From positions 1 through 53,880 of the IMG/VR virus record IMGVR_UViG_2617270943_000003: DNA of 53,880 bases; one strand, given 5' to 3'. The position numbers were made by a program, and so were the translations under genes. The stretch comes from a virus (Duplodnaviria > Heunggongvirae > Uroviricota > Caudoviricetes). The notes beneath the pieces were generated by a model. That model had not been told where the DNA came from and ran no database searches. It was given only the letters and a program-made list of their open reading frames with translations. Shown here one piece after another: positions 7,998-51,687 of this stretch. The stretch's first letter is position 1. Each line of letters opens with the position of its first letter.

Positions 7998-8303
7998 CTT
8001 GTTTTTCTCCTATGGTTAGAGTGAACGCGCGGGCGGGCATCCCATTAGCATTAGATAGCAGTGACTGACCGCTGAACAGATCCCGCCGTTGCGTGATATT
8101 TGTTTTTCGCTTCGCAGCGACACCGGGTTTTTAAAGAGCTTAAGGTATGTGCCTTTTTGTGCCTTCCGTTATCTTTTTCCTTGCGTCTTTGCAAGTATGG
8201 CCTTACCTTGTCTGCAAGTTTACAAAATGGAATTTTAAGATCAAGGCTTAAAATACACGTTTTGTGACTTGCATCAAACTTTTTGAGGTTATAGGGTAGC
8301 GAC

Positions 8304-8981: not shown

Positions 8982-9073
8982 GCCTGGAAAACACCAAAAC
9001 GTAAACAGAAAACGTTATTTATTATTTAAATATCAATGGCATATAAAATATTTTAAAAAAGTATACAAAATGG

Positions 9074-9102
9074 ATTGACTCGGTGTTTTACGGGGCGTAT
9101 AT
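9074..9102 (+). promoter_or_regulatory. Sigma70-like promoter (TTGACT-17bp-TATATT) for the rightward early operon
   Basis: Consensus-like -35 and -10 with 17-bp spacing; flanked by the inverted repeat TTGACTCG/CGAGTCAA (9074-9111) and preceded by GTATACAAAATGG. Confidence 0.4.
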
Positions 9103-9451
9103 TGCGAGTCAAAGGAAGGGCGCAGGTAACAAAAGCAACTTCCTGGCACTTTAAAAATCAGGCTTAACACCTTGTCAACCGTGGAGTAACTCCCCGATGG
9201 GGGACCGAAAGCGGCACTGATAACAAGGCGCATGGGGTGTTTAAAGCGTTACATCCCCCACGAAACCGCACGCAAGGCGACGAGTCAGCTTGCTTGGAGT
9301 GAGCAAGGTCACGCCGGGAACGGCGATGATTGCGGGATTAGTTGAAAGATGTTAAGCCGCTCATTAACAATCTGGTCAGCCGCTGGAAGTGCGGCAATTA
9401 ACGAAGATGATTTTTTATTAAGTGTCATCAAGGATATACGGAGATCAGATT

Positions 9452-16699: not shown

Positions 16700-16715
16700 T
16701 GTGATGAATGTCACA
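16700..16715. promoter_or_regulatory. Consensus CRP-like palindrome TGTGA-N6-TCACA
   Basis: TGTGATGAATGTCACA read directly; lies between inverted copies of the TACAAAATGG element upstream of the Cys-rich ORF and ninG. Confidence 0.4.
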
Positions 16716-37816: not shown

Positions 37817-38137
37817 TTATGCTATTTTTTCGTAAAGCACATTCATCTGTGTGCGAATTACTGTTAATATATTGATTGCTGCGTTCTTATTAATGCGTTT
37901 ATTCGCTACTATTTTTGTTTTCCCATCAATAACAACCAGATCTGCGTGCAATACATGGTTGAAGTTGACAATGTAATAATACTGTTTATCGCCAACATGT
38001 TGAACATATGCACCATTTAGATTTCCTTTATACCCACAATCACGCTCTGCGACACCGAAGTCAAATTCGCGGTTCATCTTGCGATTATATGCTACTTGTT
38101 TATGTTCCCATTTTCTCATCCATTCATCGCGTTTCAT
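37817..38137 (-). CDS. Hypothetical protein (accessory cassette A, gene 2)
   Basis: 106 aa opposite-strand ORF inserted between tail chaperone and tape measure genes. Confidence 0.5.
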   Translation of the reverse strand: MKRDEWMRKWEHKQVAYNRKMNREFDFGVAERDCGYKGNLNGAYVQHVGDKQYYYIVNFNHVLHADLVVIDGKTKIVANKRINKNAAINILTVIRTQMNVLYEKIA

Positions 38138-38146
38138 GTTTCACCC

Positions 38147-38806
38147 TTAATTCCAGTTGCAAGCGTTTTTTACTTTGTCGATGTGGTTATAAAGACCATC
38201 AATGTTAAACACTGCTTTCTCAATGTCGCCAGCTTCCGGCACTACTTCAATGATAAATTGTTTTTCGTTAACCAGATTTTTAATCATTGGGATGGCTTTT
38301 TTGTCGTTCCATAATCCAAGAGCTTTATAGTTAGTTGACCGCCCCCATTCAGTGGCTACAGCTTTGTGATCGCCGATCCGGTAGTTAATATAAGTAGCGT
38401 CCCCGGCGTCAGTTACACGGTGTGACCATGCTACGAACATTTTTGTTTTATTACCCTGGCAAGCAATTGTTAATACCGGTTTATTCTTATCCTGTGCCTT
38501 CAGTGCCGGGAAGGCATCAAGACTTCCGCTAAAATGATCTGCTTTCACAAAAAGGAACACGTTTTTTGTGTCCTGCATATCATCTTTTCTTTCGACCACA
38601 AGCCACTGTTTACCAGCTTTTTCTTTTGCTAACTGTGCCTCATATGCGGCTTGTTTTGCTTGTTGTTCCGCAAGCCATTTAGCATTTTTCTCAGCCAATG
38701 CTTGTTGTTCTTGAGTGGTCACTATAGGCGCTTTTTCATTATCCTCATTGCAACCAACCAGACCCAATACCGCCGCAATCATTGCCACTTTTGCTAACTG
38801 TTTCAT
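38147..38806 (-). CDS. Lipoprotein (accessory cassette A, gene 1)
   Basis: Signal peptide with lipobox MIAAVLGLVGC, then an Ala/Gln/Lys-rich helical linker and a C-terminal domain. Confidence 0.6.
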   Translation of the reverse strand: MKQLAKVAMIAAVLGLVGCNEDNEKAPIVTTQEQQALAEKNAKWLAEQQAKQAAYEAQLAKEKAGKQWLVVERKDDMQDTKNVFLFVKADHFSGSLDAFPALKAQDKNKPVLTIACQGNKTKMFVAWSHRVTDAGDATYINYRIGDHKAVATEWGRSTNYKALGLWNDKKAIPMIKNLVNEKQFIIEVVPEAGDIEKAVFNIDGLYNHIDKVKNACNWN

Positions 38807-38986
38807 AACCCACCACGCTTAGTTTTTATTTTTAAGTGATTTTAACATTTCTTCAATGAAATCCGCATAGCGTTCATGTTCGTTGGGACGGTAGTTTACG
38901 TTTTTCATTTTCTTGTCCTCTTTTGCTTCCTCCGGTTCATCCGGTCCTTTTAAATCCCTTTACTCTATCCATTTCCTTTAGCCTCT

Positions 38987-41415: not shown

Positions 41416-41442
41416 CCCCGGCACAATGCCGGGGCTATTTTT
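41416..41442. terminator. Bidirectional rho-independent terminator after tape measure gene
   Basis: CCCCGGC-ACAAT-GCCGGGG hairpin flanked by A-run upstream and T-run downstream. Confidence 0.65.
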
Positions 41443-41626
41443 ATTCAATTTCATCATTTTTAAATTCGCCGTTTACATAAAGCTGTAATGCTTTTATTAG
41501 TTCAGCGGCTTGCTTTTTGTCTATTACAATCATTTCGCAGTCGCTCACGATCCATAATCGCCCATCCTCTTCAATGCTAAGATTAATCCCTCTACATTCT
41601 TGCGTTTCATGAATAATCATTATCAA
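41441..41626 (-). CDS. Hypothetical protein (accessory cassette B, gene 4)
   Basis: 61 aa opposite-strand ORF. Confidence 0.4.
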   Translation of the reverse strand: MIMIIHETQECRGINLSIEEDGRLWIVSDCEMIVIDKKQAAELIKALQLYVNGEFKNDEIE

Positions 41627-41658
41627 CCTCCATTGTGTTATTAATTACATGAATAAAT

Positions 41659-41853
41659 TTACTCAAAACTTGTATATCCTCTCACAATTTTTCCGCCTCT
41701 TGCGCTTTTTGCAAATACAGCGTCAGTGTATCTGAAAAACGGTTCTGTGTATGTCTCACCTTTGCTATCCATCCATTTAACCACCCAGGCCATGCGTTTA
41801 ATGTTGCTTTTGCTTGCTGTAGTTTTCATTTTGTTTTCCTCCGCAACATTCAA
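41659..41853 (-). CDS. Hypothetical protein (accessory cassette B, gene 3)
   Basis: 64 aa opposite-strand ORF. Confidence 0.4.
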   Translation of the reverse strand: MNVAEENKMKTTASKSNIKRMAWVVKWMDSKGETYTEPFFRYTDAVFAKSARGGKIVRGYTSFE

Positions 41854-41860
41854 ATCCGAA

Positions 41861-42115
41861 TCACTTGTGAGCGCCTTTCACCCCACAGTGCCTGTTATAT
41901 TCCAGATGATCGATGATTAACCAGACTTTGAGATCTTCGCTAAACAGCCGCCAGTCAGGATTGATATCGAATTTAAAGCCATAACCATCGCGTAACTTTT
42001 TGGGGCGCGCCTCTTTCTTCAAAAATGCTTTAAGCAGTTCCTTACCTTTCTTGATAATCCGGTCCTGTGCGTTTTTCTGTACTTTCAGGTTTTTGTCAAT
42101 CGCTACCAGTTTCAT
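41861..42115 (-). CDS. Hypothetical basic protein (accessory cassette B, gene 2)
   Basis: 84 aa Lys-rich ORF. Confidence 0.45.
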   Translation of the reverse strand: MKLVAIDKNLKVQKNAQDRIIKKGKELLKAFLKKEARPKKLRDGYGFKFDINPDWRLFSEDLKVWLIIDHLEYNRHCGVKGAHK

Positions 42116-42134
42116 AGCTCACCCCCGATTATCC

Positions 42135-42290
42135 TTAATTAAGAGCCTTCAGGAAGAAATCACGGTATTCATCTTCTTTTGCATTCATCATGAATTGACC
42201 GTATTTGAATGCGTCGTCGAAACCCTTAACGATTGCTATTTCCACTTGTTCGAATGCGTTGTTTAGCATTACCACTACATAGCGTTTCAT
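42135..42290 (-). CDS. Hypothetical protein (accessory cassette B, gene 1)
   Basis: Start placed at MKRYVVVML, preceded by GAAGGAGG; the track ORF extends upstream to 42365. Confidence 0.4.
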   Translation of the reverse strand: MKRYVVVMLNNAFEQVEIAIVKGFDDAFKYGQFMMNAKEDEYRDFFLKALN

Positions 42291-42458
42291 TTTGGGCCTC
42301 CTTCGTTGGTACTGCTTTTCTTCTTGCTTTCTATATACATCTTGTTGCGTACTATGTGAAGCCATTTTGTAAACTAGCTATAATCATTGTGATGAAGATC
42401 TCATTTTTCGCGTAGAAGCGCGTAAAGATATATACAAAATGTAACTTATGGGGGTTTT

Positions 42459-42812
42459 ATGCCGGAAGTGTTCAGATGGACGCCACAACGAAGCTACAGC
42501 GTGACCAGGGAGCCAGACGTGTCTGTTGTTAAGCTGGGTGATGGTTATGAGCAAAGGCAGGTGAAAGGTATCAATCCATTACTCGATAGCTACACCCTGG
42601 TATTTAAAGGCAGTAGCGCCGGATGCGGTGATGGTGAAAACGTAGCAATCCAGGCGGAAGCATTCTTGAGGGCGCGCGGCGCGGTAGAGGCTTTTTACTG
42701 GTCGCCGTCGATGGATAACGTGCAAAGGCTTTTTGTTTGCCGTCGATGGAGCATGACTAAAGACGGGTCTTTGTACACGCTAAACGCAACATTTGAGCAA
42801 GTCGTCAGATGA
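42459..42812 (+). CDS. M: Minor tail protein M
   Basis: FRWTPQRSYSVTREPDVSVVKLGDGYEQR...ATFEQVV is collinear with lambda gpM. Confidence 0.8.
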   Translation: MPEVFRWTPQRSYSVTREPDVSVVKLGDGYEQRQVKGINPLLDSYTLVFKGSSAGCGDGENVAIQAEAFLRARGAVEAFYWSPSMDNVQRLFVCRRWSMTKDGSLYTLNATFEQVVR

Positions 42813-43009
42813 TGGAGGTTAATATGTATGGTATTTGTGTAGTGGACCGCACTGGCGCTTTTACATTCTTTGACGACTATGAAATTAAAGATCTTACTGT
42901 AAAGGCTGACAATGGCGAGATCTGGTATCTTCATGATGTTGGTGACGGGTATGTCGGATGCAGATCGAGAGAGGGTAGGGAAGTTTTATTCTTGCTTGAT
43001 GGCGTATAA
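42809..43009 (+). CDS. Hypothetical protein
   Basis: 66 aa ORF inserted between M and L homologs. Confidence 0.4.
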   Translation: MMEVNMYGICVVDRTGAFTFFDDYEIKDLTVKADNGEIWYLHDVGDGYVGCRSREGREVLFLLDGV

Positions 43010-43015
43010 ACACGA

Positions 43016-43043
43016 CCCCGCGCGAAGCGGGGTTATTATTATT
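43016..43043 (+). terminator. Rho-independent terminator
   Basis: CCCCGC-GCGAA-GCGGGG hairpin followed by TTATTATTATT. Confidence 0.6.
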
Positions 43044-43157
43044 CCATTTCCATTAACGCTATATTTTCTGCTATCGTTTTCCAGTCCAGATCTACAGCAT
43101 GAACACCAAATACCATCAACCCCATTGCGATTAGTGCTAAAACTTCGATTTTCATAA
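43044..43157 (-). CDS. Small hydrophobic peptide (37 aa)
   Basis: MKIEVLALIAMGLMVFGVHAVDLDWKTIAENIALMEM with GAGGT upstream; the two-residue acidic tail is not a recognised cleavage site, so a signal-peptide reading is speculative. Confidence 0.25.
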
Positions 43158-43246
43158 TCAACCTCGCTTAATTAAGAAAGGCGTAAACGATGGCAATCGC
43201 GCCAGCCACTACCAAAACATTTCGATCACTTCGTCTACTTTATTGA

Positions 43247-43450
43247 TTAAGGTAACTCCACTTCGTTAAATGTAACAAGCACCCCTTGATTTTCTTTATT
43301 TATAATTATGAAGGCATTAATTGAAGGCAGACATCTTTCCACGCGGTAAACGTCACCAATATCTAAACTGTAATATTCTGTTAATTCTCTATTGTTCCCT
43401 TTAGCAAAACCCGTAAACCTAACCATTCCTTGACCGTCGTACTTTAACAT
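43247..43450 (-). CDS. Hypothetical protein (accessory cassette C)
   Basis: 67 aa opposite-strand ORF. Confidence 0.4.
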   Translation of the reverse strand: MLKYDGQGMVRFTGFAKGNNRELTEYYSLDIGDVYRVERCLPSINAFIIINKENQGVLVTFNEVELP

Positions 43451-43458
43451 ATACAGTC

Positions 43459-43707
43459 CTATAGGTTATCACGCAGATAATTAACGCCCTTATCAGTGAC
43501 GAATGAATGATTAACCTGGTTTTCATCCGTCATGATGATGAATAACTTTTCCTGTAGGTATTTCGCTTTCGGGTACAGCGTTAAACAGACCTGGTACAGT
43601 ATCCCGCGCTCAATCAGCAAATCAATAAATTCGTGCTCATGATAACCGACGAGGCGGGCGGCCTGTTTCAACGTGTACACATAATCGCCGTGATTGCGCC
43701 ACGCCAT
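43459..43707 (-). CDS. Hypothetical protein, possible HTH (accessory cassette C)
   Basis: 82 aa; segment YTLKQAARLVGYHEHEFIDLLIERGILY resembles a helix-turn-helix. Confidence 0.4.
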   Translation of the reverse strand: MAWRNHGDYVYTLKQAARLVGYHEHEFIDLLIERGILYQVCLTLYPKAKYLQEKLFIIMTDENQVNHSFVTDKGVNYLRDNL

Positions 43708-43716
43708 TTTGCCGCC

Positions 43717-44064
43717 TTATTTATCGAATACTGAAAGGTTATCGATGCAGAAATCTTTTGCCGCTTTTTCGTATTCGCGTTTTGCTTCAGGATCATCTGC
43801 CGGGAAACCGTGCGCGTGTATTTCGCCAGGGCAAGACTGGTCCATAGAATCTGCATAATAAGCAGCGAAGCTACCATTAATATCTTTCGGGTTCATATCT
43901 TCCACCTCATCAACTATCTGTACCGGATTAGCAGCATATTTCACTGGATGGCCTAAACTACATTCAAGAATCCTGCCTTCTTCCAGGGCTACTTCTTCGC
44001 TATCAAATAATCCGAAACACTCCTTGCTACCACTTATCCACACATCAAGACTGTATTTTTGCAT
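43717..44064 (-). CDS. Hypothetical acidic protein (accessory cassette C)
   Basis: 115 aa opposite-strand ORF. Confidence 0.45.
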   Translation of the reverse strand: MQKYSLDVWISGSKECFGLFDSEEVALEEGRILECSLGHPVKYAANPVQIVDEVEDMNPKDINGSFAAYYADSMDQSCPGEIHAHGFPADDPEAKREYEKAAKDFCIDNLSVFDK

Positions 44065-44234
44065 TTTTTGTTAACCTCATTTTTCACAGGTTCGATCCTA
44101 TATCCCAAAACGCGGTCATCCTCAGCAAGTTCAAGCGCATCAATCAGTGCCTCACCCTCATCATCATACAGAGCGATAACCTTTTCCCTTCCGCCTGTCA
44201 GGAATACCGTCAACTTCCACACCTTATCACCCAT
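44034..44234 (-). CDS. Hypothetical protein (accessory cassette C, first gene)
   Basis: Start at MGDKVWKL with GGAGGTG upstream; the track ORF extends upstream to 44354. Confidence 0.4.
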   Translation of the reverse strand: MGDKVWKLTVFLTGGREKVIALYDDEGEALIDALELAEDDRVLGYRIEPVKNEVNKKCKNTVLMCG

Positions 44235-44363
44235 TTCACACCTCCGCGCCATTTTGTTAACTATGCTTCCGTTTGAGTAAAATATACATATTGTAAAAAC
44301 CGCGATCAATCCATTTTGGCATGATTTGGCGTGACACAGATCACAAAATGACAAGGTGAGAAA

Positions 44364-45068
44364 ATGCGCAATATTCCGAGAGAGATGATTATTGATTCCG
44401 TCGATGCCGGAGTCGGCGCGGTCATTGACTTATTTGAACTGGACCTGACTCCACTTGGTGGCGATGTTGTCCGCTTCCATTCCGGCGCTAATGGCTATTA
44501 CGGGAATGTTATCTGGAAGGGTATCGCTTACAACAGCTACCCGATCGAAGTTAGCGGCTTCGAAATGAAAAACGAGGGGGTATACGCGCGGCCTCAAATG
44601 GCAGTAGCCAATATTGGCGGGCTTATTACCGGAATGAACAACGACTTTAACGACCTGCGCGGCATGAAAGTAACCCGCCACCAGGTGGAGGTGAAATACC
44701 TGGACGCTGTTAACTTCCCTAACGGCAATCCAGATGCAGATCCTTCTATTGAGGCGGTATCTGTTTACGTTGTCGAGGCAATGAGTGAAGAAACGGCGGA
44801 GCAAGTACAGTACGAACTATCTACGCCAGTAGACGCAGACAAGGCTGTTATACCTGGGCGCACCATCCTTGCTGACGTTTGCCAGTGGCAATATCGCGGA
44901 GACGGTTGCGGATATAGCGGCGGCCCGGTAGCGACTGATAAAGATGCGCCGACCAGTGATCCAACATTGGATAAATGCAGCCACCGCCTCAGCGGTTGTC
45001 GCTTGCGCTTCCCGCGCCCGAATCCGTTACCAATTTCATGTTTCCCCGGATCAAGCAAGGTGGGCTAA
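44364..45068 (+). CDS. L: Minor tail protein L
   Basis: Collinear with lambda gpL (LDAVNFPNGNP...RGDGCGYSGGPVATD...DKCSHRLSGC). Confidence 0.8.
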   Translation: MRNIPREMIIDSVDAGVGAVIDLFELDLTPLGGDVVRFHSGANGYYGNVIWKGIAYNSYPIEVSGFEMKNEGVYARPQMAVANIGGLITGMNNDFNDLRGMKVTRHQVEVKYLDAVNFPNGNPDADPSIEAVSVYVVEAMSEETAEQVQYELSTPVDADKAVIPGRTILADVCQWQYRGDGCGYSGGPVATDKDAPTSDPTLDKCSHRLSGCRLRFPRPNPLPISCFPGSSKVG

Positions 45069-45070
45069 TT

Positions 45071-45802
45071 ATGGCACTTGAAGACAAAATGGTTCGTTAT
45101 GCCGCCGCTCACCCTCGCGAGGAAGTTTGCGGACTGGTGATAGATAACGATTATTTTTACCCGTGCTTAAACGTGTCTGAAACGCCCTACAACAGCTTTA
45201 AAATTTCGCCGGACGATTACATCAAGGCTGACGAATTGGGCGTCATAACCGCCGTTTTCCACTCTCACGTTGAAGATATTCCGGTATTGTCGGCACTAGA
45301 TCGACAACAACAGGTTATTTCCGGCCTTCCGTGGTTTTTATGTTCCGGTGGCAGGGTTAGAAAATTCCGCCCGGTAGCGCACCTGTTAGGCCGAAAATTT
45401 GAGCACGGGAAAACAGACTGCTACGCGCTTTTCCGGGACGCCTATCACCTTTGCGGCGTGGGTCTGCCGGACTTCGAGCGCCTTGATGGGTGGTGGTTGC
45501 GTGGTGAAAACCTGTATTTAAAAAACTTGCCGCTAAACGGGTTTTATCAGGTTGACGCGCAAAGCATCCAGCCGGGTGACGTGATTATTCGCCAGCCGTT
45601 CAAGGGTGCTGATCCATGTCACGCGATGATTTACCTGGGTGATAACACTGTTTTGCATCATGACAATGCCGGACTGTTAAGTCGCCGCGAGCAGATGCGG
45701 CCCGCTTATGTTCGACAAACGCATTCAATATGGAGATCTGACAAATGCTCAAATTTAGATTTACGGGCAATCTTCGAAGATATTACGGCAAAGTGTGTTT
45801 AA
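45071..45802 (+). CDS. K: Tail assembly protein K (MPN/JAMM + NlpC/P60-like)
   Basis: VITAVFHSHVED (JAMM-like HxH) and a C-terminal Cys/His region; position after L. Confidence 0.75.
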   Translation: MALEDKMVRYAAAHPREEVCGLVIDNDYFYPCLNVSETPYNSFKISPDDYIKADELGVITAVFHSHVEDIPVLSALDRQQQVISGLPWFLCSGGRVRKFRPVAHLLGRKFEHGKTDCYALFRDAYHLCGVGLPDFERLDGWWLRGENLYLKNLPLNGFYQVDAQSIQPGDVIIRQPFKGADPCHAMIYLGDNTVLHHDNAGLLSRREQMRPAYVRQTHSIWRSDKCSNLDLRAIFEDITAKCV

Positions 45803-46289: not shown

Positions 46290-49200
46290 ATGAGTAGCGG
46301 CGGCGGCAAAGCCAAAACACCAACATTGCTAAACGATAACCTGTATCATAAACAGTTTTACCGTGTTTTAGATATCCTTAGTGAAGGGCCGATATACGGT
46401 CCAGTAAACCAGACCGCGCCATTAAACAGCGTAATGCTTAATGACACCCCTGTTACTGACACCAACGGGAATACATCCATTCCTGGTATTAGTATAGCGT
46501 GGCGCAACGGTACGGTTGACCAATCGCCAATCAATGGTTTTAACGCTATCGAATCAACCGTTATTGTCAACGCTCAGGTAACTCGCGACACACCAATAAT
46601 CAGGACCGTTTCAGATCCAAACGTAACCCGCGTCAGATTAAATGTTGGCGTTGATGCTCTCGTTCAGTCAGATGATCAGGGCAATCAATACAACACATCC
46701 GTTATGTTAATGGTTGATGTTAAGCCATCATCATCATCAACTTGGACACTGGTTAAGGATATTACCATTGGCCCTGGTAAACAGAGCGGTGAATACTTAG
46801 AAGCTCACATTATCAACGCGCCGGATGAAAAACCGTTTGATATTCGCGTTCGCCGCATAACGGCAGACAGCAACAGCGATCTACTTCGCAATGATACGCG
46901 GTGGAGCAGTTACAGCGAAATCATCGACGATAATTTGTCTTATCCTCACACCGCTGTAGCTGGAGCGGTGATTGATCATGATCAGTACACTGACACGCCT
47001 ACCCGCGCTTATCATCTGCGCGGCCTGATTGTTGACGTGCCGGACAACTACAACCCTGAAGCGCGCACGTATTCCGGTTTATGGCTTGGTGGATTTAAAA
47101 AGGCGTACACCAATAACCCTGCCTGGCTTTTCCGGTATTTGATTAAAAATGAACGCTTTGGCCTTGCACGACAGGCTGGTTATATTGACGTTGATGACGG
47201 CGCTTTATACGTGCTTTCTCAATACTGCGACCAGTTGGTTGATGATGGCTACGGTGGCCTTGAGCCTCGCATGACGCTTAACGCTTACATCACAGAGCAA
47301 ATGAGCGCCCGCGACTTACTGGACAATATCGCCGGGATGTTCAGGGGTATCGCGTTATGGGACGGGCAACGCCTTACCGTGATGATTGATGCACCACAAG
47401 ACCCGATCGCCACCATTACAAATGCAAACGTCGTTGATGGTGCATTCACCCGTTCGAGCCTTGCCCGCGCGGAGTGCTACAACGCCGTGATTGTATCCTG
47501 GACCGATCCGGGTAACGGTTGGGAACAGTCAAAAGAATACGTTTCTGACGATGAACTAATCGCCCGCGACGGCTACAACGAAACCACGCTAGAGGCGTTC
47601 GGGTGCACGTCTCGCGGACAGGCTTATCGCGCTGGTAAATGGCTGATCGAAACAGCAAAACGCGAGCCGTCAAAATTCACGTTTAAAATGGCCCGTGACG
47701 CCATTCACTTTACACCAGGGGATATCATCGAGATCCTCGACAATAACCGCGCTGGCGCTCGCTTAGGCGGTCGTATCGTGGCGAACAATGGCAAAGTGAT
47801 AACGGTCGATAAGGTTGATTCTGAATATATCGCGGCTGGTGACACCATCAGCTTACTTGATAGCGATGGTAAATTTAAAAAACACCAGATCACCGGAGTT
47901 AACGGAAACAATATTACCCTTGCTGCGGCCCCTGCATGGATTCGCAATGGCACTGTTTTTGCTGTATCGACTGAAGCAGCAAAACCCGTTTTATGTAGGA
48001 TCACCAGCGTAGCAGAAACAGAAAATAACAGCGTATACACTATCGAAGCCGCACAGCACGACCCTAACAAACAGGCCGTAGTTGATGAAGGCGCAGTCTT
48101 CGAAATCAACAACGACACGCTTAATCACTTCCGCGTACCTAACATTGAAAATCTGAAGGTGTTAAACGTTGGTTCTGAAACGGTTCAATGCCGCGCAACA
48201 TGGGAAACGCAGACAACAACGCATCGTCTTACCTTTGAAATCCGCGTATATAATGCAGACGGTCGCGTGGTGGCAAGTTATGAAACCACGAATTACCGCT
48301 ATGAATTTTATGGCCTCGACGCAGGCAGCTACACGCTTGGTATTCGCGGTCGTAATGACACTGGCATGAAGGGCGCAGAAAGTATTGTGGATCTGGTTAT
48401 TGGTGCGCCAGCGGCCCCCATCGGCGTTAATTGGGTGCCTGGTGTTTTTCAGGCAACGGTGTACCCGATCAGCAAAACAACCCTAACCACTGATACAGCA
48501 TACGAGTTCTACTACTCCGGGGAAAATCAGATCACAGATCCATCAAAAGTAACCACATCAGCGCAGTTTACCGGGCGCGGGTATCAGTGGACTTTTGGCG
48601 GAATGAACACGGGCCATACCTATTACGTTTATGTCCGTACACGTAACGCTTTTGGTGTGTCAGATTTCGTTGAGGCATCAGGCAAACCAACTGAAAACTT
48701 CGATGAAATTAGCGACTACGTCACCAAAGACGTGATTAATTCAGAACAGTTTAAGGGGATGATTGGCGACATTAAAGATCTTGGCGACCGCGCTGATCTT
48801 ATAGAGAGCGCTACGGATGACCTAAAAACTGCAACTGACGACCTTAAGACCGCAACTGATAATCTTACCAATATCACAAACGGCCTAAGAACTGATACTG
48901 ACGACCTTATTGCAGAAACAGGGTCAATAAAAGTTGACACAGATACGCTTAAAAAAGACACGGAAGATCTTTATAAAAAAGTTCAGGAAAGCGCCGATGA
49001 AATAGGTAAACATGAGGTAAGAATAGACTCGTTAGAGGTATCAAGCGAAAACGTCGGTAATGAACTGGCACAGACAAAAGCAAGCCTACAAAACGCATCG
49101 CTTGCTCTTATTAATAATTCGCTTGCTCAAACTAACACCAGAAGAACGCTTACAGCTCAGATCAAAAATGTAGATTCAGAAACTAAGGCGCAAATAGATC

Positions 49201-51230
49201 GCATTGATAACGTGATTGTCAGTGAAAAAGAAGCAAGAGCGGAGGCAATGGAGACAATTACCGCCGAAATCGACACGATGGATAAAAACATCAAAGGTGA
49301 GATTGCGCGCGTAGATACTGCCATTGCCAATGAGAGCCAGGCAAGGGCTGATGCCATCAGTGAAGTTAGCGCAAACATTGACGCACTTGATAGTAAAACA
49401 GATGCCAGTGTTAATCGTCTTGATCAAGCTATCGCAGATGAGGCCAGCGCACGCGCACAGGCTATCAGCAATGTCAATGCGAGCATGACAAATCTTGATA
49501 ACAAGGTTACAAGCAACGTTTCTAGACTTGATCAGGCAATAGCTGACGAATCAAGCGCAAGAGCAGAAGCCGATGATCAGTTAATAGCAAAAAGCGAAAA
49601 ACTTGATGGTGATCTCGCTATGGCAAGGGCAAGCCTACAAAACGCTTCGCTTGCTCTCATCAATAATACATTGTCTCAGACAAAGACAAGGCGCACTCTC
49701 ACAGCGGAGTTCAAACGCGGACAAAGTGAAACTAAAGCACAAATTGACCGTATTGATAATGTCATTACTGACGAAAAACAGGCAACAGCGGAAGCGTTTG
49801 AAACTATCACAGCAGAAATGAACACGATGGACTCAAACATTAAAGGAGAAATATCACGATTAGATAAAGTGATCGCGACTGAAACGCAAGCAAGATCTGA
49901 AGCTATAAGTAGTGTTAATGCAAGCATAAAGACGCTAGAAAGCGACACTGAAGCCAGCGTTAACCGTCTTGATCAGGCAGTTGCTGACGAGGCCAGCGCC
50001 CGCGCACAAGCTATCAGCGGAGTAAATGCAAGCATCAGCACGCTTGATAGCAAGGTTACAAGCAATGTGACCCGTATCGACAAAGCTATTGCAGATGAGA
50101 CGCAGGCCCGCACAGACGCAATAAGCAACCTTAACTCATCGCTTACCAGTACGATTAATTCGAAAGTATCTGAAGTATCAACAGCACTTTCTACGCATGA
50201 AGCATCAAGCGCGGAAAAATTCAGCCAGATCTCAGCGTCTTTCGAAGCTGTAAACTCAAGCATCACGGAATGGTCGCAGACCATGACAACTGCGGACGAG
50301 GCATTATCAACCAAAATTGATCAGCTTACAGTAACAGTTAACGGGAACACCACGGCGATCGAGACAACATCTAAAGCGTTAACCGACTTCAAAGGTAATG
50401 TTGATGCGTCATGGTCAATCAAGATTGCCACCGACAACAACGGCAGAAAATACGCAACAGGTATGTCGCTTGGCCTGACTGGTAGCGGGACTAACGTTCA
50501 ATCGCAGTGTATTTTCCTCGTTGACCGCTTCGTGTTAATGACTGCGGCAAACGGAACATATCAGACGCCTTTCTATGTTACTAATGGTGCAATGTATGTG
50601 CGCGAAGCGTTTATTAAAGACGCATCAATAGGAACGGCTAAAATTGCAGATGCAGCCATTACTATGGCTAAAATTGTTAATGAAATAAAATCATCAAACT
50701 ATGTTGCTGGTTCTAAAGGTTGGAGGATAACACAAAGCGGATCATCAGAATTTAACGATGTTGTGGTAAGGGGCGAAATCCATGCTAATAGCGGTAAATT
50801 CAAAGGAACTGTAGAAGCTACATCCTTTGTTGGTGATGTCGCATCTACTAACGTTATACCGCAATCATCATTCCCTGGGACAAGTACAAGCGGATCTCGA
50901 TCTGTTACGAAGACGTATAAAGATTCATCATCAAGCTCGCTTTCGAAAACAGTTTTCGTAATGATTCCTTACCATCTTACTTATTATACTTATTCAGGAT
51001 CATCAACAATAAAAGTAACAATTAATATTAATGGCAATAGCAAAACATATAACGTAGTAAGGGCGGCATCATCGCCTCAATTCGGATTTACGGTATCACA
51101 TTGCGTAACTGGGATTACTGCTCAAACAGTTACGATAAAAATAACAGAGGAATACACCAACACCGGAACATCAGCAGAAAGAAGGCCAGGTCTTGCACTT
51201 GTTACAAGAAGCTCAGGATCATGGTCATAA
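46290..51230 (+). CDS. J: Host specificity / central tail fibre protein J
   Basis: N-terminal ~1000 aa collinear with lambda J (FYRVLDILSEGPIYGPVN...YHLRGLIVDVPDNYNP...AFGCTSRGQAYRAGKWLIET); the C-terminal part contains extended coiled-coil repeats. ATG at 46290 with AGGAGAAAAAG upstream. Confidence 0.9.
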   Translation: MSSGGGKAKTPTLLNDNLYHKQFYRVLDILSEGPIYGPVNQTAPLNSVMLNDTPVTDTNGNTSIPGISIAWRNGTVDQSPINGFNAIESTVIVNAQVTRDTPIIRTVSDPNVTRVRLNVGVDALVQSDDQGNQYNTSVMLMVDVKPSSSSTWTLVKDITIGPGKQSGEYLEAHIINAPDEKPFDIRVRRITADSNSDLLRNDTRWSSYSEIIDDNLSYPHTAVAGAVIDHDQYTDTPTRAYHLRGLIVDVPDNYNPEARTYSGLWLGGFKKAYTNNPAWLFRYLIKNERFGLARQAGYIDVDDGALYVLSQYCDQLVDDGYGGLEPRMTLNAYITEQMSARDLLDNIAGMFRGIALWDGQRLTVMIDAPQDPIATITNANVVDGAFTRSSLARAECYNAVIVSWTDPGNGWEQSKEYVSDDELIARDGYNETTLEAFGCTSRGQAYRAGKWLIETAKREPSKFTFKMARDAIHFTPGDIIEILDNNRAGARLGGRIVANNGKVITVDKVDSEYIAAGDTISLLDSDGKFKKHQITGVNGNNITLAAAPAWIRNGTVFAVSTEAAKPVLCRITSVAETENNSVYTIEAAQHDPNKQAVVDEGAVFEINNDTLNHFRVPNIENLKVLNVGSETVQCRATWETQTTTHRLTFEIRVYNADGRVVASYETTNYRYEFYGLDAGSYTLGIRGRNDTGMKGAESIVDLVIGAPAAPIGVNWVPGVFQATVYPISKTTLTTDTAYEFYYSGENQITDPSKVTTSAQFTGRGYQWTFGGMNTGHTYYVYVRTRNAFGVSDFVEASGKPTENFDEISDYVTKDVINSEQFKGMIGDIKDLGDRADLIESATDDLKTATDDLKTATDNLTNITNGLRTDTDDLIAETGSIKVDTDTLKKDTEDLYKKVQESADEIGKHEVRIDSLEVSSENVGNELAQTKASLQNASLALINNSLAQTNTRRTLTAQIKNVDSETKAQIDRIDNVIVSEKEARAEAMETITAEIDTMDKNIKGEIARVDTAIANESQARADAISEVSANIDALDSKTDASVNRLDQAIADEASARAQAISNVNASMTNLDNKVTSNVSRLDQAIADESSARAEADDQLIAKSEKLDGDLAMARASLQNASLALINNTLSQTKTRRTLTAEFKRGQSETKAQIDRIDNVITDEKQATAEAFETITAEMNTMDSNIKGEISRLDKVIATETQARSEAISSVNASIKTLESDTEASVNRLDQAVADEASARAQAISGVNASISTLDSKVTSNVTRIDKAIADETQARTDAISNLNSSLTSTINSKVSEVSTALSTHEASSAEKFSQISASFEAVNSSITEWSQTMTTADEALSTKIDQLTVTVNGNTTAIETTSKALTDFKGNVDASWSIKIATDNNGRKYATGMSLGLTGSGTNVQSQCIFLVDRFVLMTAANGTYQTPFYVTNGAMYVREAFIKDASIGTAKIADAAITMAKIVNEIKSSNYVAGSKGWRITQSGSSEFNDVVVRGEIHANSGKFKGTVEATSFVGDVASTNVIPQSSFPGTSTSGSRSVTKTYKDSSSSSLSKTVFVMIPYHLTYYTYSGSSTIKVTININGNSKTYNVVRAASSPQFGFTVSHCVTGITAQTVTIKITEEYTNTGTSAERRPGLALVTRSSGSWS
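49082..50110 (+). repeat. Intragenic tandem duplication (~549-bp period) within J
   Basis: Two diverged copies starting AAGCCTACAAAACGC at 49082 and 49631, encoding repeated NASLQNASLALINN...AQIDRIDNVI...ARA.AIS.VNAS blocks. Confidence 0.7.
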
Positions 51231-51237
51231 AAAATAA

Positions 51238-51262
51238 CCCCGCTTCGCGCGGGGTTTTCTTT
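51238..51262. terminator. Bidirectional rho-independent terminator between J and the convergent lipoprotein gene
   Basis: CCCCGC-TTCGC-GCGGGG hairpin with A-run upstream and T-run downstream. Confidence 0.65.
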
Positions 51263-51510
51263 TAGTAGTTAGCTACACAATTCGACGGGCTACCTATGCG
51301 GCGCATGTTGTGATCGAGTTCATGACACCATTGACCAGTATACGGAAGTTTTTCAGTGTCATAGACGAGATGACCGTCAGCATCATAGACAATTTCTTGT
51401 GGGATTACTCCGCTATTTGGCAGGTTATGCAATGCAGCTTCTTTATCAACAGCGCAACCAGTAAGAGCAACAGCCGCAGCGAATAAGACCACTTTGAACA
51501 TGTTTTTCAT
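51262..51510 (-). CDS. Small lipoprotein, Cor-like candidate
   Basis: Signal peptide with lipobox AVALTGC; 82 aa; opposite-strand gene between J and the tail fibre gene, the usual place for cor. Confidence 0.4.
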   Translation of the reverse strand: MKNMFKVVLFAAAVALTGCAVDKEAALHNLPNSGVIPQEIVYDADGHLVYDTEKLPYTGQWCHELDHNMRRIGSPSNCVANY

Positions 51511-51687
51511 TTTTTAATCCTCATTCTTGTTAGCTCGTCCGGTTCATCCGGTGGTTTAAATATCCGACAAAACCACATTTCGTATATTGACATAAATCAA
51601 TAAATACATTTTGTATGCGTCAAAAATGTAACACAGATCACAAAATGGTAGAATTATTCCGTTAATTAACATAATGGAGTCATTGCG

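What the first reader, a model, noticed from the sequence alone, without database searches (positions are those of the whole stretch)
43044..44363. Second opposite-strand cassette (four to five small genes) between M and L tail genes
Between the M-like gene region (ending 43009 plus terminator) and the L-like gene (44364) lie minus-strand ORFs of 66, 115, 82 and 67 aa plus a possible 37-aa hydrophobic peptide. One has a helix-turn-helix-like segment. Their upstream region (44245-44351) contains CCATTTTG elements and the 17-bp sequence ACACAGATCACAAAATG, which recurs verbatim upstream of the tail fibre gene. In lambda, M and L are adjacent, so this is inserted accessory DNA with its own regulation.
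Basis: partly seen in the sequence, partly recalled or inferred. Interest (0 to 1): 0.6.

Follow-up and report, generated by a model that had tools for sequence, protein, structure and literature searches.

The report
Accessory gene operon inside phage tail genes
A small backward-facing operon of five real but uncharacterised genes, with its own promoter and terminator, sits between two tail genes of a known group of temperate E. coli phages; it is an ordinary dispensable accessory ("moron") insert whose job is still unknown.

Summary
The window is a whole genome of an mEpimmI (mEp021-like) temperate coliphage. Between tail genes M (42459-42812) and L (44364-45068) lie five minus-strand genes of 66, 115, 82, 67 and 38 aa. 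A + strand 66-aa gene and a bidirectional terminator belong to the same variable segment.

All five genes are under purifying selection (dN/dS 0.08-0.25). 45 of 47 relatives carry the cassette. The two without it are deletion derivatives that keep its orphan promoter.

The operon has a strongly conserved sigma-70 promoter (-35 44309-44304, -10 44286-44281). Its layout matches, in exact register, the early promoter P_R and the promoters of two other minus-strand islands.

The 82-aa protein is a stand-alone KilAC/ANT domain. The 115-aa protein has a hypervariable N-domain and a near-invariant C-terminal tail. Neither fold search gave a significant match.

The 17-mer is real, but it belongs to the L-proximal block kept in cassette-less relatives. 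It is half of a conserved CRP-type palindrome.

Verdict: a genuine low-GC moron operon in a published phage group, biochemical function unresolved. Interest is modest.

The parts
42459..42812 (+). Tail gene M (left flank; not part of the cassette)
   Evidence: PF05939 Phage_min_tail, E 6e-28. 81-99% identical in relatives.
42809..43009 (+). p66plus: a 66-aa acidic ORF that overlaps the M stop (ATGA). It is part of the variable segment.
   Evidence: phrog_3249, E 3e-20. Present in 44 relatives, dN/dS 0.11. Deleted from its start codon onward in empty-site loci L005 and L028. GC 41.8%.
43014..43034 (.). Bidirectional intrinsic terminator shared by the M-p66plus transcript and the cassette transcript
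   Evidence: Found on both strands. -16.1 and -16.3 kcal/mol. Annotated as a terminator on both strands in mEp021. An 88% inverted copy lies at 51230-51262, after J.
43039..43155 (-). h38: a 38-aa peptide with an N-terminal hydrophobic, signal-peptide-like or transmembrane segment (MKIEVLALIAMGLMVFGVHA). Flexible gene.
   Evidence: ORF. Present in 24 relatives, dN/dS 0.17. No family match. The signal or transmembrane reading is inferred from the sequence.
43247..43450 (-). c67: a 67-aa protein of unknown function. Flexible gene, always found together with h38.
   Evidence: phrog_14327, E 1.5e-5. Present in 11 loci, dN/dS 0.12.
43459..43707 (-). c82: a stand-alone KilAC/ANT-domain protein with the HTH-like segment. 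Core gene, highly conserved.
   Evidence: PF03374, 29.1 bits against a cut-off of 25.3. phrog_5689. 89-98% identical in 45 loci. Only 7 clusters at 90% identity. dN/dS 0.11. Nearest outside relatives are C-terminal KilAC domains of multidomain Ant/Rha proteins, 32-38% identical.
43717..44064 (-). c115: a 115-aa protein with net charge about -14. It has a variable N-domain (beta-beta-alpha-beta), a predicted disordered linker and a near-invariant C-terminal tail (SMDQSCPGEIH..GFPADDP..KREYEKAAKDFCIDNL). Core gene.
44034..44234 (-). c66: a 66-aa acidic protein, first gene of the operon. Its 3' end overlaps c115. Core gene with a variable C-terminal tail.
   Evidence: phrog_29559, E 1.5e-32. 44 clusters. 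Alignment A3. dN/dS 0.25. Weak profile similarity to the c115 N-domain (hhalign E 0.018, reported probability 2.6%). The RefSeq name 'transporter' has no support from any family search.
44249..44261 (-). Conserved box GCCATTTTGTTAAC (reads GTTAACAAAATGGC on the cassette strand) in the 5' leader just upstream of the c66 ribosome-binding site. It is also the right-hand deletion end-point in empty-site relatives.
   Evidence: 34-37 of 37 unique sequences identical per position. Function unknown.
44281..44319 (-). Cassette promoter P_cas: upstream box CCAAAATGG (44319-44311), -35 TTGATC (44309-44304), 17-bp spacer, -10 TATATT (44286-44281)
   Evidence: Consensus scan. The -10 is invariant in 37/37 unique sequences; five -35 positions are 37/37 and one is 32/37. 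Same register as P_R and islands A and B. Present in 42 of 46 relatives. No experimental transcription start site.
44330..44345 (.). CRP-type palindrome CGTGAC-ACAG-ATCACA, 19 bp upstream of the L start codon
   Evidence: TGTGA-N6-TCACA with at most 1 mismatch: 9 sites against 1.7 expected. Half-sites are 35-37 of 37 while the central 4 nt are 24-29 of 37. Retained in empty-site relatives. The binding protein is unknown.
44334..44350 (+). It consists of the palindrome spacer, the right half-site and an ACAAAATG box.
   Evidence: Exact second copy at 51631-51647. The stf-upstream copy is likewise a conserved TGYAAC-N4-ATCACA palindrome with a variable centre.
44364..45068 (+). Tail gene L (right flank; not part of the cassette)
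   Evidence: PF05100, E 4e-72.

Best explanation
This is a dispensable, low-GC accessory ('moron') operon that is ancestral to the mEpimmI phage group. It is embedded antisense in the late tail operon.

How it is transcribed: leftward from a sigma-70 promoter of the same design as the early promoter P_R. The layout is box CAAAATGG, then -35 TTGATC, a 17-bp spacer and -10 TATATT. It is translated as c66 > c115 > c82 > c67 > h38. It stops at a hairpin that also terminates the converging M-p66plus transcript. Late tail transcription is expected to cross it by the group's Q-like antitermination.

What it makes: small acidic cytoplasmic proteins, a stand-alone KilAC/ANT-domain protein and a tiny membrane or periplasmic peptide. 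These should act on host or phage regulation and conflict, not on tail assembly.

Favoured mechanism (inferred, not shown): c82 acts as the isolated KilAC domain of Listeria AriS does. That is, it binds a conserved cellular or phage regulator and so tunes SOS/RecA-dependent loss of repression. c115 would use its invariant C-tail for a conserved partner and its variable N-domain for a variable one.

Shown: gene reality, operon punctuation, conservation, dispensability and the domain assignment of c82.
Inferred: timing of expression and every biochemical activity.
For: - Phage identity and synteny.
- Coding reality: dN/dS 0.08-0.25 for every ORF, and a PHROG family for five of six.
- Promoter.
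- Terminator.
- Accessory nature: two deletion variants. The M-L gap is about 40 bp in many sister phages, and other loci carry unrelated inserts at the same junction, including a NucC-like nuclease. GC is 41.9% against 51-52% in the flanks.
- Neighbouring minus-strand islands carry a ParE-like toxin domain and a VasI-like protein. A fourth island carries the Lpp lipoprotein shown experimentally to exclude superinfection (PMC11893012).
- c82 is KilAC. A KilAC domain alone suppresses the SOS response in Listeria (PMC9043618).
- A Q-like late antiterminator is reported for the group.
- c115 architecture.
Against: - No expression data exist, so the promoter is only consensus plus conservation.
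- c82 matches KilAC only modestly (E 1e-6, 82 aa against a profile of about 108 positions). It is far from AriS and its AF2 model is poor (pLDDT 67, no fold hit).
- Sharing promoter design with P_R could mean repression in lysogens, which would fit an early lytic role better than a lysogenic one.
- c66, c115, c67 and h38 have no functional homologue at all.
- Whether the two cassette-less prophages are viable phages was not tested.
Confidence: 0.5

Rival explanations
1. An early anti-defence or host-takeover operon of the Acr/Aca type. Variable small acidic proteins (c66, c115) would inhibit host defence or host enzymes early in infection. The conserved HTH-like c82 at the end of the core would autoregulate the promoter through the near-palindrome over the -10.
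For: - Gene order: variable acidic proteins followed by a highly conserved HTH-like protein (60 and 44 clusters against 7).
- c115 carries a charge of about -14.
- The promoter shares the design of early P_R.
- The 30 bp around the -10 (AAAATATACATATTGT, a 16-bp imperfect palindrome) are nearly invariant.
- The c115 C-module occurs as a 56-aa protein in an array of small genes in an unrelated phage.
Against: - No match to any known anti-defence or Aca family.
- c82 has pI 6.4, which is not basic, and KilAC is not a known Aca family.
- dN/dS of the variable domain is 0.25, so there is no sign of positive selection.
- The palindrome occurs once only, and a single occurrence is not rare by chance (20 of 100 shuffles).
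Confidence: 0.2
2. A lysogen-protecting superinfection-exclusion or defence cassette, expressed from the prophage like the Lpp island or the HK97 gp15 moron. The membrane peptide h38 and/or the variable proteins would block incoming phages.
For: - The island after J encodes an experimentally proven exclusion lipoprotein.
- Island B carries a ParE-like toxin domain.
- The same M-L junction in a sister phage carries a DUF6602/NucC-like nuclease.
- h38 is hydrophobic.
- c115 exists as divergent allelic types.
Against: - No PADLOC hit for any cassette protein.
- h38 and c67 are optional, being present in 24 and 11 of the 45 cassette-bearing loci.
- The core proteins look cytoplasmic and acidic, with no enzymatic domain.
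- The Lpp island does not use the P_R-type promoter.
Confidence: 0.15
3. A toxin-antitoxin or addiction module in which c66 is the antitoxin and c115 the toxin.
For: Two small overlapping genes lie behind a conserved promoter. The adjacent island appears to hold a ParE-like pair.
Against: c115 is strongly acidic with a disordered linker, which is unlike known toxins. There are no TA family hits. In most relatives c66 is shorter, so the overlap seen here is probably absent.
Confidence: 0.05
4. Tail-assembly or virion accessory genes that happen to be on the other strand.
For: Location inside the tail module. p66plus is co-oriented with M and overlaps its stop codon.
Against: Opposite strand with its own sigma-70 promoter and terminator. 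The segment is deleted in two relatives and absent from sister phages with homologous M and L. No structural-protein family match.
Confidence: 0.03

Closest known systems
Phage morons. From my own knowledge: lambda bor and lom, the HK97 gp15 superinfection-exclusion moron in the tail region, and cor of phi80/N15/T1. Within this group: Lpp of mEp021 and mEp010 (PMC11893012).
   Same: An autonomous transcription unit (promoter plus terminator) inserted between late genes that are adjacent in relatives. Lower GC than its flanks, dispensable, and variable in content. As I recall it, bor also lies antisense to late transcription.
   Different: This is a multi-gene operon of 3-6 genes rather than a single gene. 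It is one of four such islands in a single tail module. Its promoter is a copy of the early P_R design. None of its products resembles a known moron product.
AriS-type ANT/KilAC regulators (Listeria phi10403S LMRG_02920; PMC9043618) and multidomain Ant/Rha/Bro-N-KilAC antirepressors
   Same: c82 passes the Pfam PF03374 gathering threshold. It aligns at 32-38% identity with the C-terminal KilAC domains of such proteins in Vibrio, Cronobacter and Hafnia phages.
   Different: c82 is the KilAC domain alone, at 82 aa, with no AntA/B, Bro-N or Rha N-domain. It lies in the tail module rather than the early or immunity region. SOS inhibition or antirepression has not been tested.
Anti-CRISPR/Aca operons (acr genes followed by an HTH autoregulator)
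   Same: Small, variable acidic proteins lie upstream of a strongly conserved HTH-like protein. They sit behind a strong promoter that carries an inverted repeat, and the whole unit is inserted in a structural gene cluster.
   Different: No sequence or fold relationship to any Acr or Aca. KilAC is not an Aca family that I know of. The operon is antisense to the structural genes.
P22 immI region (mnt-arc-ant), which as I recall lies in the late region near the tailspike gene
   Same: A regulatory or 'antirepressor' module embedded among late structural genes, with its own promoters.
   Different: P22 Ant belongs to other Pfam families. No Arc/Mnt-like ribbon-helix-helix genes are present here, and no family search returned one.
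CRP (cAMP receptor protein) binding sites, consensus TGTGA-N6-TCACA
   Same: The site at 44330-44345 matches 9 of the 10 core positions. Its half-sites are conserved while its centre varies across relatives.
   Different: The position does not fit class I or class II activation of either flanking promoter: about -64 from the predicted P_cas start, and about +5 from a weak + strand -10-like element. Binding by CRP, as opposed to a phage protein, is untested.

Membership tests
Moron (autonomous accessory transcription unit in a phage late operon) | Lies between genes that are adjacent in related phages | tested here: met
   The M-L gap is about 40 bp in roughly 14 of 37 sister loci and 124-125 bp in L005 and L028, against 1551 bp here.
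Moron (autonomous accessory transcription unit in a phage late operon) | Own promoter | tested here: met
   TTGATC-17-TATATT on the minus strand. The -10 is invariant in 37/37 unique sequences. Present in 42 of 46 relatives. This is sequence evidence only.
Moron (autonomous accessory transcription unit in a phage late operon) | Own terminator | tested here: met
   Hairpin at 43014-43034, -16 kcal/mol on both strands. The U-tract on the cassette strand is weak.
Moron (autonomous accessory transcription unit in a phage late operon) | Base composition differs from the flanks | tested here: met
   41.9% GC against 51.4% for M and 52.5% for L.
Moron (autonomous accessory transcription unit in a phage late operon) | Expressed from the prophage and beneficial to the lysogen | not testable with these tools
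   No transcript or phenotype data. The P_R-type promoter leaves lysogenic expression open.
ANT/KilAC domain (Pfam PF03374) | Profile match above the curated gathering score | tested here: met
   c82 scores 29.1 bits against 25.3, E 1.3e-6, covering profile positions 23-105 of 108. Homologues carry a precomputed PF03374 assignment.
AriS-like / classical KilAC antirepressors | Two-domain architecture (an AntA/B, Bro-N or Rha N-domain plus a C-terminal KilAC) | tested here: not met
   c82 is 82 aa and consists of KilAC only. The multidomain proteins match only through their C-terminal part.
AriS-like / classical KilAC antirepressors | Inhibits the SOS response or inactivates a repressor | not testable with these tools
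   Needs reporter and induction assays.
Acr-Aca anti-defence operon | Regulator belongs to a known Aca family, or an inhibitor belongs to a known Acr family | tested here: inconclusive
Known anti-phage defence systems (PADLOC) | HMM match to a defence-system protein | tested here: not met
   0 hits for all six proteins at E <= 0.1.
Type II toxin-antitoxin | Toxin or antitoxin family match | tested here: not met
   None in Pfam or NCBIfam. By contrast, the gene at 41861-42115 in island B matches ParE_like PF24732.
Cor/Llp/Lpp-type exclusion lipoproteins | Signal peptide with a lipobox cysteine | tested here: not met
   h38 (MKIEVLALIAMGLMVFGVHAVD...) has no cysteine. The lipobox protein is at 51262-51510.
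CRP binding site | TGTGA-N6-TCACA dyad with conserved half-sites | tested here: met
   9 of 10 core positions match. Half-sites are 35-37 of 37 and the centre is 24-29 of 37.
CRP binding site | Bound by CRP-cAMP and positioned at -41.5, -61.5 or -71.5 relative to a promoter | tested here: inconclusive
   The centre at 44337.5 is about 64 bp from the predicted P_cas start. No transcription start site has been mapped and binding is untestable here.

The most novel reading that the evidence does not exclude
The three minus-strand islands in the tail module (A, B and this one) would form one regulon. Their promoters are in-register copies of the early promoter P_R. All share the AAGTWTACAAAATGG-type box, which also flanks the repressor gene on both sides. 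CRP-type dyads sit at each junction.

On this reading the immunity switch and/or host cAMP-CRP would control a set of conflict genes placed antisense inside a Q-antiterminated late operon. c115 would then be a new kind of effector: an invariant C-terminal 'warhead' motif that also exists as a 56-aa stand-alone protein in another phage, joined to a hypervariable recognition domain.
Probability: 0.12. Interest if true: 0.6.

Novelty: new member of a known kind. Interest (0 to 1): 0.33.

Why it matters
mEpimmI phages are reported to be as common as lambdoid phages in human gut E. coli isolates (PMC11893012). Yet about half of their genes, including this cassette, are unannotated.

This work shows several things:
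- The M-L insert is a real, well-punctuated, nearly universal but dispensable operon.
- It shares promoter design with P_R and with two other antisense islands.
- It contains a stand-alone KilAC domain and a two-part protein, variable in one half and invariant in the other.

Together these define a compact set of testable candidates for lysogeny control or phage-phage and phage-host conflict. The work also corrects a misleading database name ('transporter'). It identifies the M-L junction as a recurrent cargo site that carries a NucC-like nuclease in a sister phage.

Tried and rejected
- Fold-based function for c82. The shallow alignment gave pLDDT 67, and Foldseek against the PDB gave nothing at E < 3.
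- Sequence searches of the PDB, PADLOC and NCBIfam returned no usable hits.
- Remote homologues of c115. The full HMMER profile search found only 15 hits, all fragments or the same family, plus a stand-alone C-module.
- c66 as a paralogue of the c115 N-domain. hhalign gave E 0.018 (reported probability 2.6%) with matching secondary-structure order. This is suggestive only.
- Rfam. No family matched in the window at gathering score. There is no c4-type antisense RNA next to the 'antirepressor', and the only hit at E<=1 in the region is a chance snoRNA match.
- ACAAAATG as a -35 element, as an extended -10, as an IHF site or as boxA. Each fits only some instances. The boxA-like sequence I read at the probable nutR2 region near 16.78 kb is GCTCTTTAAAAA, which is a different sequence. 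The best-supported role is as the box immediately upstream of the -35 in four in-register promoters.
- A + strand restart promoter for L (TGGTATGAT in most relatives, TGGCATGAT here). Its -10 is not conserved, with TGTGAT and CGCGAT variants, so it is doubtful.
- FNR-type dyads are not enriched genome-wide: 7 against 3.1 expected, reached by 5 of 100 shuffles.
- TTGACTCG inverted repeats around P_R as shared operators. They are not found at the cassette promoter.
Full report
**What the window is.** The 2.7-kb region around the finding matches seven GenBank phages at 83-88% identity: mEp013, mEp554, mEp515, mEp021, mEp010, mEp044 and MagusPhagus. It also matches prophages in 35 of 5,426 complete E. 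coli genomes. These are the 'mEpimmI' group, described in 2025 as Nus-dependent, non-lambdoid temperate coliphages with a CI-like repressor, an N-like antiterminator and, according to the paper, a Q-like function (PMC11893012). The 53,880-bp window is of whole-genome size for this group, whose GenBank members are 53-55 kb.

**The observation.**
- c66 runs from 44234 to 44034. Its ATG follows a GGAGGTG ribosome-binding site.
- c115 runs from 44064 to 43717.
- c82 runs from 43707 to 43459.
- c67 runs from 43450 to 43247.
- h38, a 38-aa hydrophobic peptide, runs from 43155 to 43039.

M (PF05939) and L (PF05100) flank them. A GC-rich hairpin at 43014-43034 scores as an intrinsic terminator on both strands, at about -16 kcal/mol in each direction. 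The two CCATTTTG copies and the exact 17-mer repeat are also confirmed.

**Are the ORFs genes?** I fetched 43 related IMG/VR loci through the L protein and added five GenBank or RefSeq loci.
- Of 47 loci that contain both M and L (this window included), 45 carry the cassette.
- Pairwise Nei-Gojobori dN/dS (ratio of mean dN to mean dS) is well below 1 for every ORF. The values are 0.21 for c115, 0.11 for c82, 0.25 for c66, 0.12 for c67, 0.17 for h38 and 0.11 for the + strand 66-aa ORF p66plus.
- Five of the six proteins match PHROG families, all of unknown function except a weak Ant hit for c82.

So the region is not a degenerate remnant.

**Core and flexible content.**
- Core genes: p66plus, c66, c115 and c82 are found in essentially every cassette.
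- Flexible genes: h38 is in 24 loci. c67 is in 11 and always occurs with h38. An extra 77-93-aa gene is in 6 loci and a 58-aa gene in 2.
- Diversity differs sharply. c82 is 89-98% identical across loci and forms only 7 clusters at 90% identity in a database of 5.8 billion non-redundant sequences. c115 forms 60 clusters and c66 forms 44.

**Accessory and dispensable.** Two loci lack the segment: the E. coli MS 21-1 prophage (L005) and one IMG/VR contig (L028).
- In them the M stop is followed after 124-125 bp by L.
- Compared with a near-identical filled relative (L026), the junction runs from the ATG of p66plus to just left of ATTTTGTTAAC. It shows a 2-nt (AT) microhomology.
- The now-orphan minus-strand promoter is retained. 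The empty state is therefore a deletion, and the cassette is ancestral to the group.
- In a sister group whose L is 72-74% identical, the M-L gap is about 40 bp in roughly 14 of 37 loci. In the rest it holds unrelated small genes, mostly on the minus strand. One is a 268-aa DUF6602/PD-(D/E)xK NucC-like nuclease. The M-L junction is thus a recurrent cargo site.
- GC is 41.9% in the cassette, against 51.4% in M and 52.5% in L.

**Regulation: the cassette promoter.** An alignment of 37 unique L-upstream sequences shows the following.
- The minus-strand promoter is -35 TTGATC (44309-44304), a 17-bp spacer and -10 TATATT (44286-44281).
- All six -10 positions are invariant. Five of the six -35 positions are invariant and the sixth is 32/37.
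- The pattern CAAAATGG-N-TTSAY-N18-TATAWW has exactly four matches in the window against none expected. They are the early rightward promoter region at 9066-9103, minus-strand island A at 39023-38986 upstream of the tape-measure gene, island B at 42369-42332 upstream of M, and this cassette at 44318-44281.
- That pattern was written after seeing these sequences, so the count is descriptive. Even so, the exact register of box, -35, spacer and -10 is striking.
- The cassette copy is present in 42 of 46 relatives.
- The other (44249) lies in the transcribed leader, a few bases before the c66 ribosome-binding site. It is invariant even in the empty-site relatives, and its role is unknown.

**Regulation: the ACAAAATG box genome-wide.** The 8-mer occurs 23 times against 3.9 expected. 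A 16-nt version (AAGTWTACAAAATGGA) flanks the repressor gene at 8216 and 9059. I could not decide whether it is a UP-like promoter element or a site for a phage regulator. No single promoter role fits all copies.

**Regulation: the 17-mer.** It overlaps CGTGAC-ACAG-ATCACA (44330-44345), a CRP-type dyad.
- Across relatives the half-sites are 35-37 of 37 identical, whereas the four central bases are only 24-29 of 37. This is the signature of a dimeric DNA-binding protein.
- The copy upstream of the tail-fibre gene behaves the same way: TGYAAC-N4-ATCACA with a variable centre.
- TGTGA-N6-TCACA with at most 1 mismatch occurs 9 times against 1.7 expected, mostly in intergenic regions and including the M-upstream region at 42388.
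- The whole block from 44250 to the L start is kept in cassette-less relatives. So the dyad and the 17-mer belong to the junction or to the L side, not to the cargo.
- The verbatim identity of the two 17-mers in this genome partly reflects a shared spacer (ACAG) that is not conserved elsewhere.
- The position of the dyad does not match canonical CRP activation geometry. It lies about 64 bp from the predicted cassette start and about +5 from a poorly conserved + strand -10-like element. I leave the binding protein open.

The paper reports a Q-like late function. Tail transcription therefore need not restart after each island and can read through the bidirectional terminators.

**The proteins: c82.**
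- It passes the Pfam gathering score for ANT/KilAC.
- Outside the group its nearest relatives are the C-terminal domains of multidomain Ant/Rha proteins, at 32-38% identity.
- It is a stand-alone KilAC domain with pI 6.4.
- The only experimental activity I found for an isolated KilAC domain is suppression of the SOS response by the C-terminal domain of Listeria AriS (PMC9043618).
- Its AF2 model is weak and gave no fold hit.

**The proteins: c115.**
- It carries a net charge of about -14.
- It has a confidently predicted beta-beta-alpha-beta N-domain (pLDDT 90) that is highly variable, a low-confidence linker and a near-invariant C-terminal 45 residues.
- dN/dS is 0.25 in the N part and 0.08 in the C part. 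This points to old divergent alleles under purifying selection rather than detectable positive selection.
- The C-module exists as a 56-aa stand-alone protein inside an array of small genes in an unrelated contig that carries a Mu-type portal.

**The proteins: c66, h38 and c67.**
- c66 may share the fold of the c115 N-domain (hhalign E 0.018). Its RefSeq name 'transporter' is unsupported.
- h38 looks like a signal peptide or membrane anchor followed by a short tail. This is inferred from the sequence.
- c67 has no informative match.
- None of the six proteins hits PADLOC.

**Interpretation.** What is shown is an autonomous, conserved, dispensable, low-GC operon placed antisense in the tail module, which makes it a moron. 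It is one of four such islands.
- Island A carries a VasI-like protein.
- Island B carries a ParE-like toxin domain.
- Island D carries the Lpp lipoprotein that was shown experimentally to exclude superinfection.

What it does is inferred. I favour a regulatory or conflict role centred on the KilAC protein, either AriS-like tuning of SOS-dependent induction or antirepressor-like protein binding. c115 would act as a two-part adaptor. An Acr/Aca-like early anti-defence operon is the main rival, and superinfection exclusion comes next. Toxin-antitoxin and structural roles are unlikely.

**Novelty and score.** The phage group, the gene calls and the 'putative antirepressor' label are already public (mEp021 gp70-gp74), although the paper does not analyse them. 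This is a new member of a known kind. Several details are new and testable: the shared P_R-type promoter, the CRP-type dyads, the deletion variants, the architecture of c115 and the junction hotspot. None overturns expectations, so I score interest at 0.33.

Noticed in passing
window 41441-42365 (minus strand): Island B, the 'first' opposite-strand cassette between the tape-measure gene and M, contains an 84-aa protein with a ParE-like toxin domain at 41861-42115 (PF24732, E 8e-11). A 51-aa ORF at 42135-42290 (phrog_29810) lies directly upstream of it. Together they may form a toxin-antitoxin pair.
   Followed up: partly
window 37817-38920 (minus strand): Island A, upstream of the tape-measure gene, encodes a 219-aa protein matching the type VI secretion VasI/EvfG family (PF11319, E 2e-14) and a 106-aa ORF with no match.
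   Followed up: no
window 9066-9103 (+), 39023-38986 (-), 42369-42332 (-), 44318-44281 (-): Four promoters lie in exact register: CAAAATGG, one base, a -35, a 17-bp spacer and a TATAWW -10. They are the early P_R region and the three minus-strand islands of the tail module. This suggests co-regulation or duplication of a promoter module.
   Followed up: partly
window 8216-8231 and 9059-9074; genome-wide: The 16-mer AAGTWTACAAAATGGA flanks the repressor gene on both sides, and an inverted pair lies at 8213-8273. The core ACAAAATG occurs 23 times against 3.9 expected, mostly in intergenic regions. It could be an operator or a UP-like element. This was not resolved.
   Followed up: partly
window 8263, 11526, 13135, 16700, 22550, 42388, 44330, 51627: CRP-type dyads (TGTGA-N6-TCACA with at most 1 mismatch) are enriched, 9 against 1.7 expected. 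They sit mostly in regulatory intergenic regions, and the one at 16700 is a perfect core.
   Followed up: partly
window 51587-51600: An FNR-type dyad, TTGAC-ATAA-ATCAA, lies between the Lpp gene and the tail-fibre gene. In relatives it is TTGAT-N4-ATCAA with a variable centre. Such dyads are not enriched genome-wide.
   Followed up: partly
window 43008-43040 and 51230-51262: The same terminator hairpin (CCCCGCGCGAAGCGGGG) is used, in opposite orientation and at 88% identity over 33 nt, at the M/cassette boundary and at the J/Lpp boundary.
   Followed up: partly
L056 5024-5830 (minus strand), sister-group IMG/VR contig: In a phage whose L is 73% identical, the M-L junction holds a 268-aa DUF6602/PD-(D/E)xK protein that matches the PADLOC NucC nuclease models. 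Other sister loci carry an aspartyl-protease-like protein or a CxxCxxCC protein at the same junction.
   Followed up: partly
L166 4001-4171 (ENA metagenome contig with a Mu-type portal): A 56-aa acidic protein (P0113) consists only of the conserved C-terminal module of c115. It is 50% identical over residues 70-105, E 8e-14, and lies in a run of small unannotated genes.
   Followed up: partly
window 44034-44234; RefSeq WP_085654716.1 and WP_097446393.1: Homologues of c66 are named 'transporter' in RefSeq. Nothing in Pfam, NCBIfam, PHROGs or the sequence itself, a soluble acidic protein of about 60 aa, supports that name.
   Followed up: yes
window 49043-49342 and 49592-49891: The J-like tail-tip gene contains an internal 300-nt direct repeat, 69% identical and 549 nt apart. 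It lies within its coiled, repeat-rich central part.
   Followed up: no
window 44975-45802 versus 45071-45802: The K-like gene has an upstream in-frame start that would overlap L by 94 nt. GenBank and RefSeq records disagree on which start to use: MagusPhagus uses the long form, while PGAP and mEp021 use the short form.
   Followed up: no
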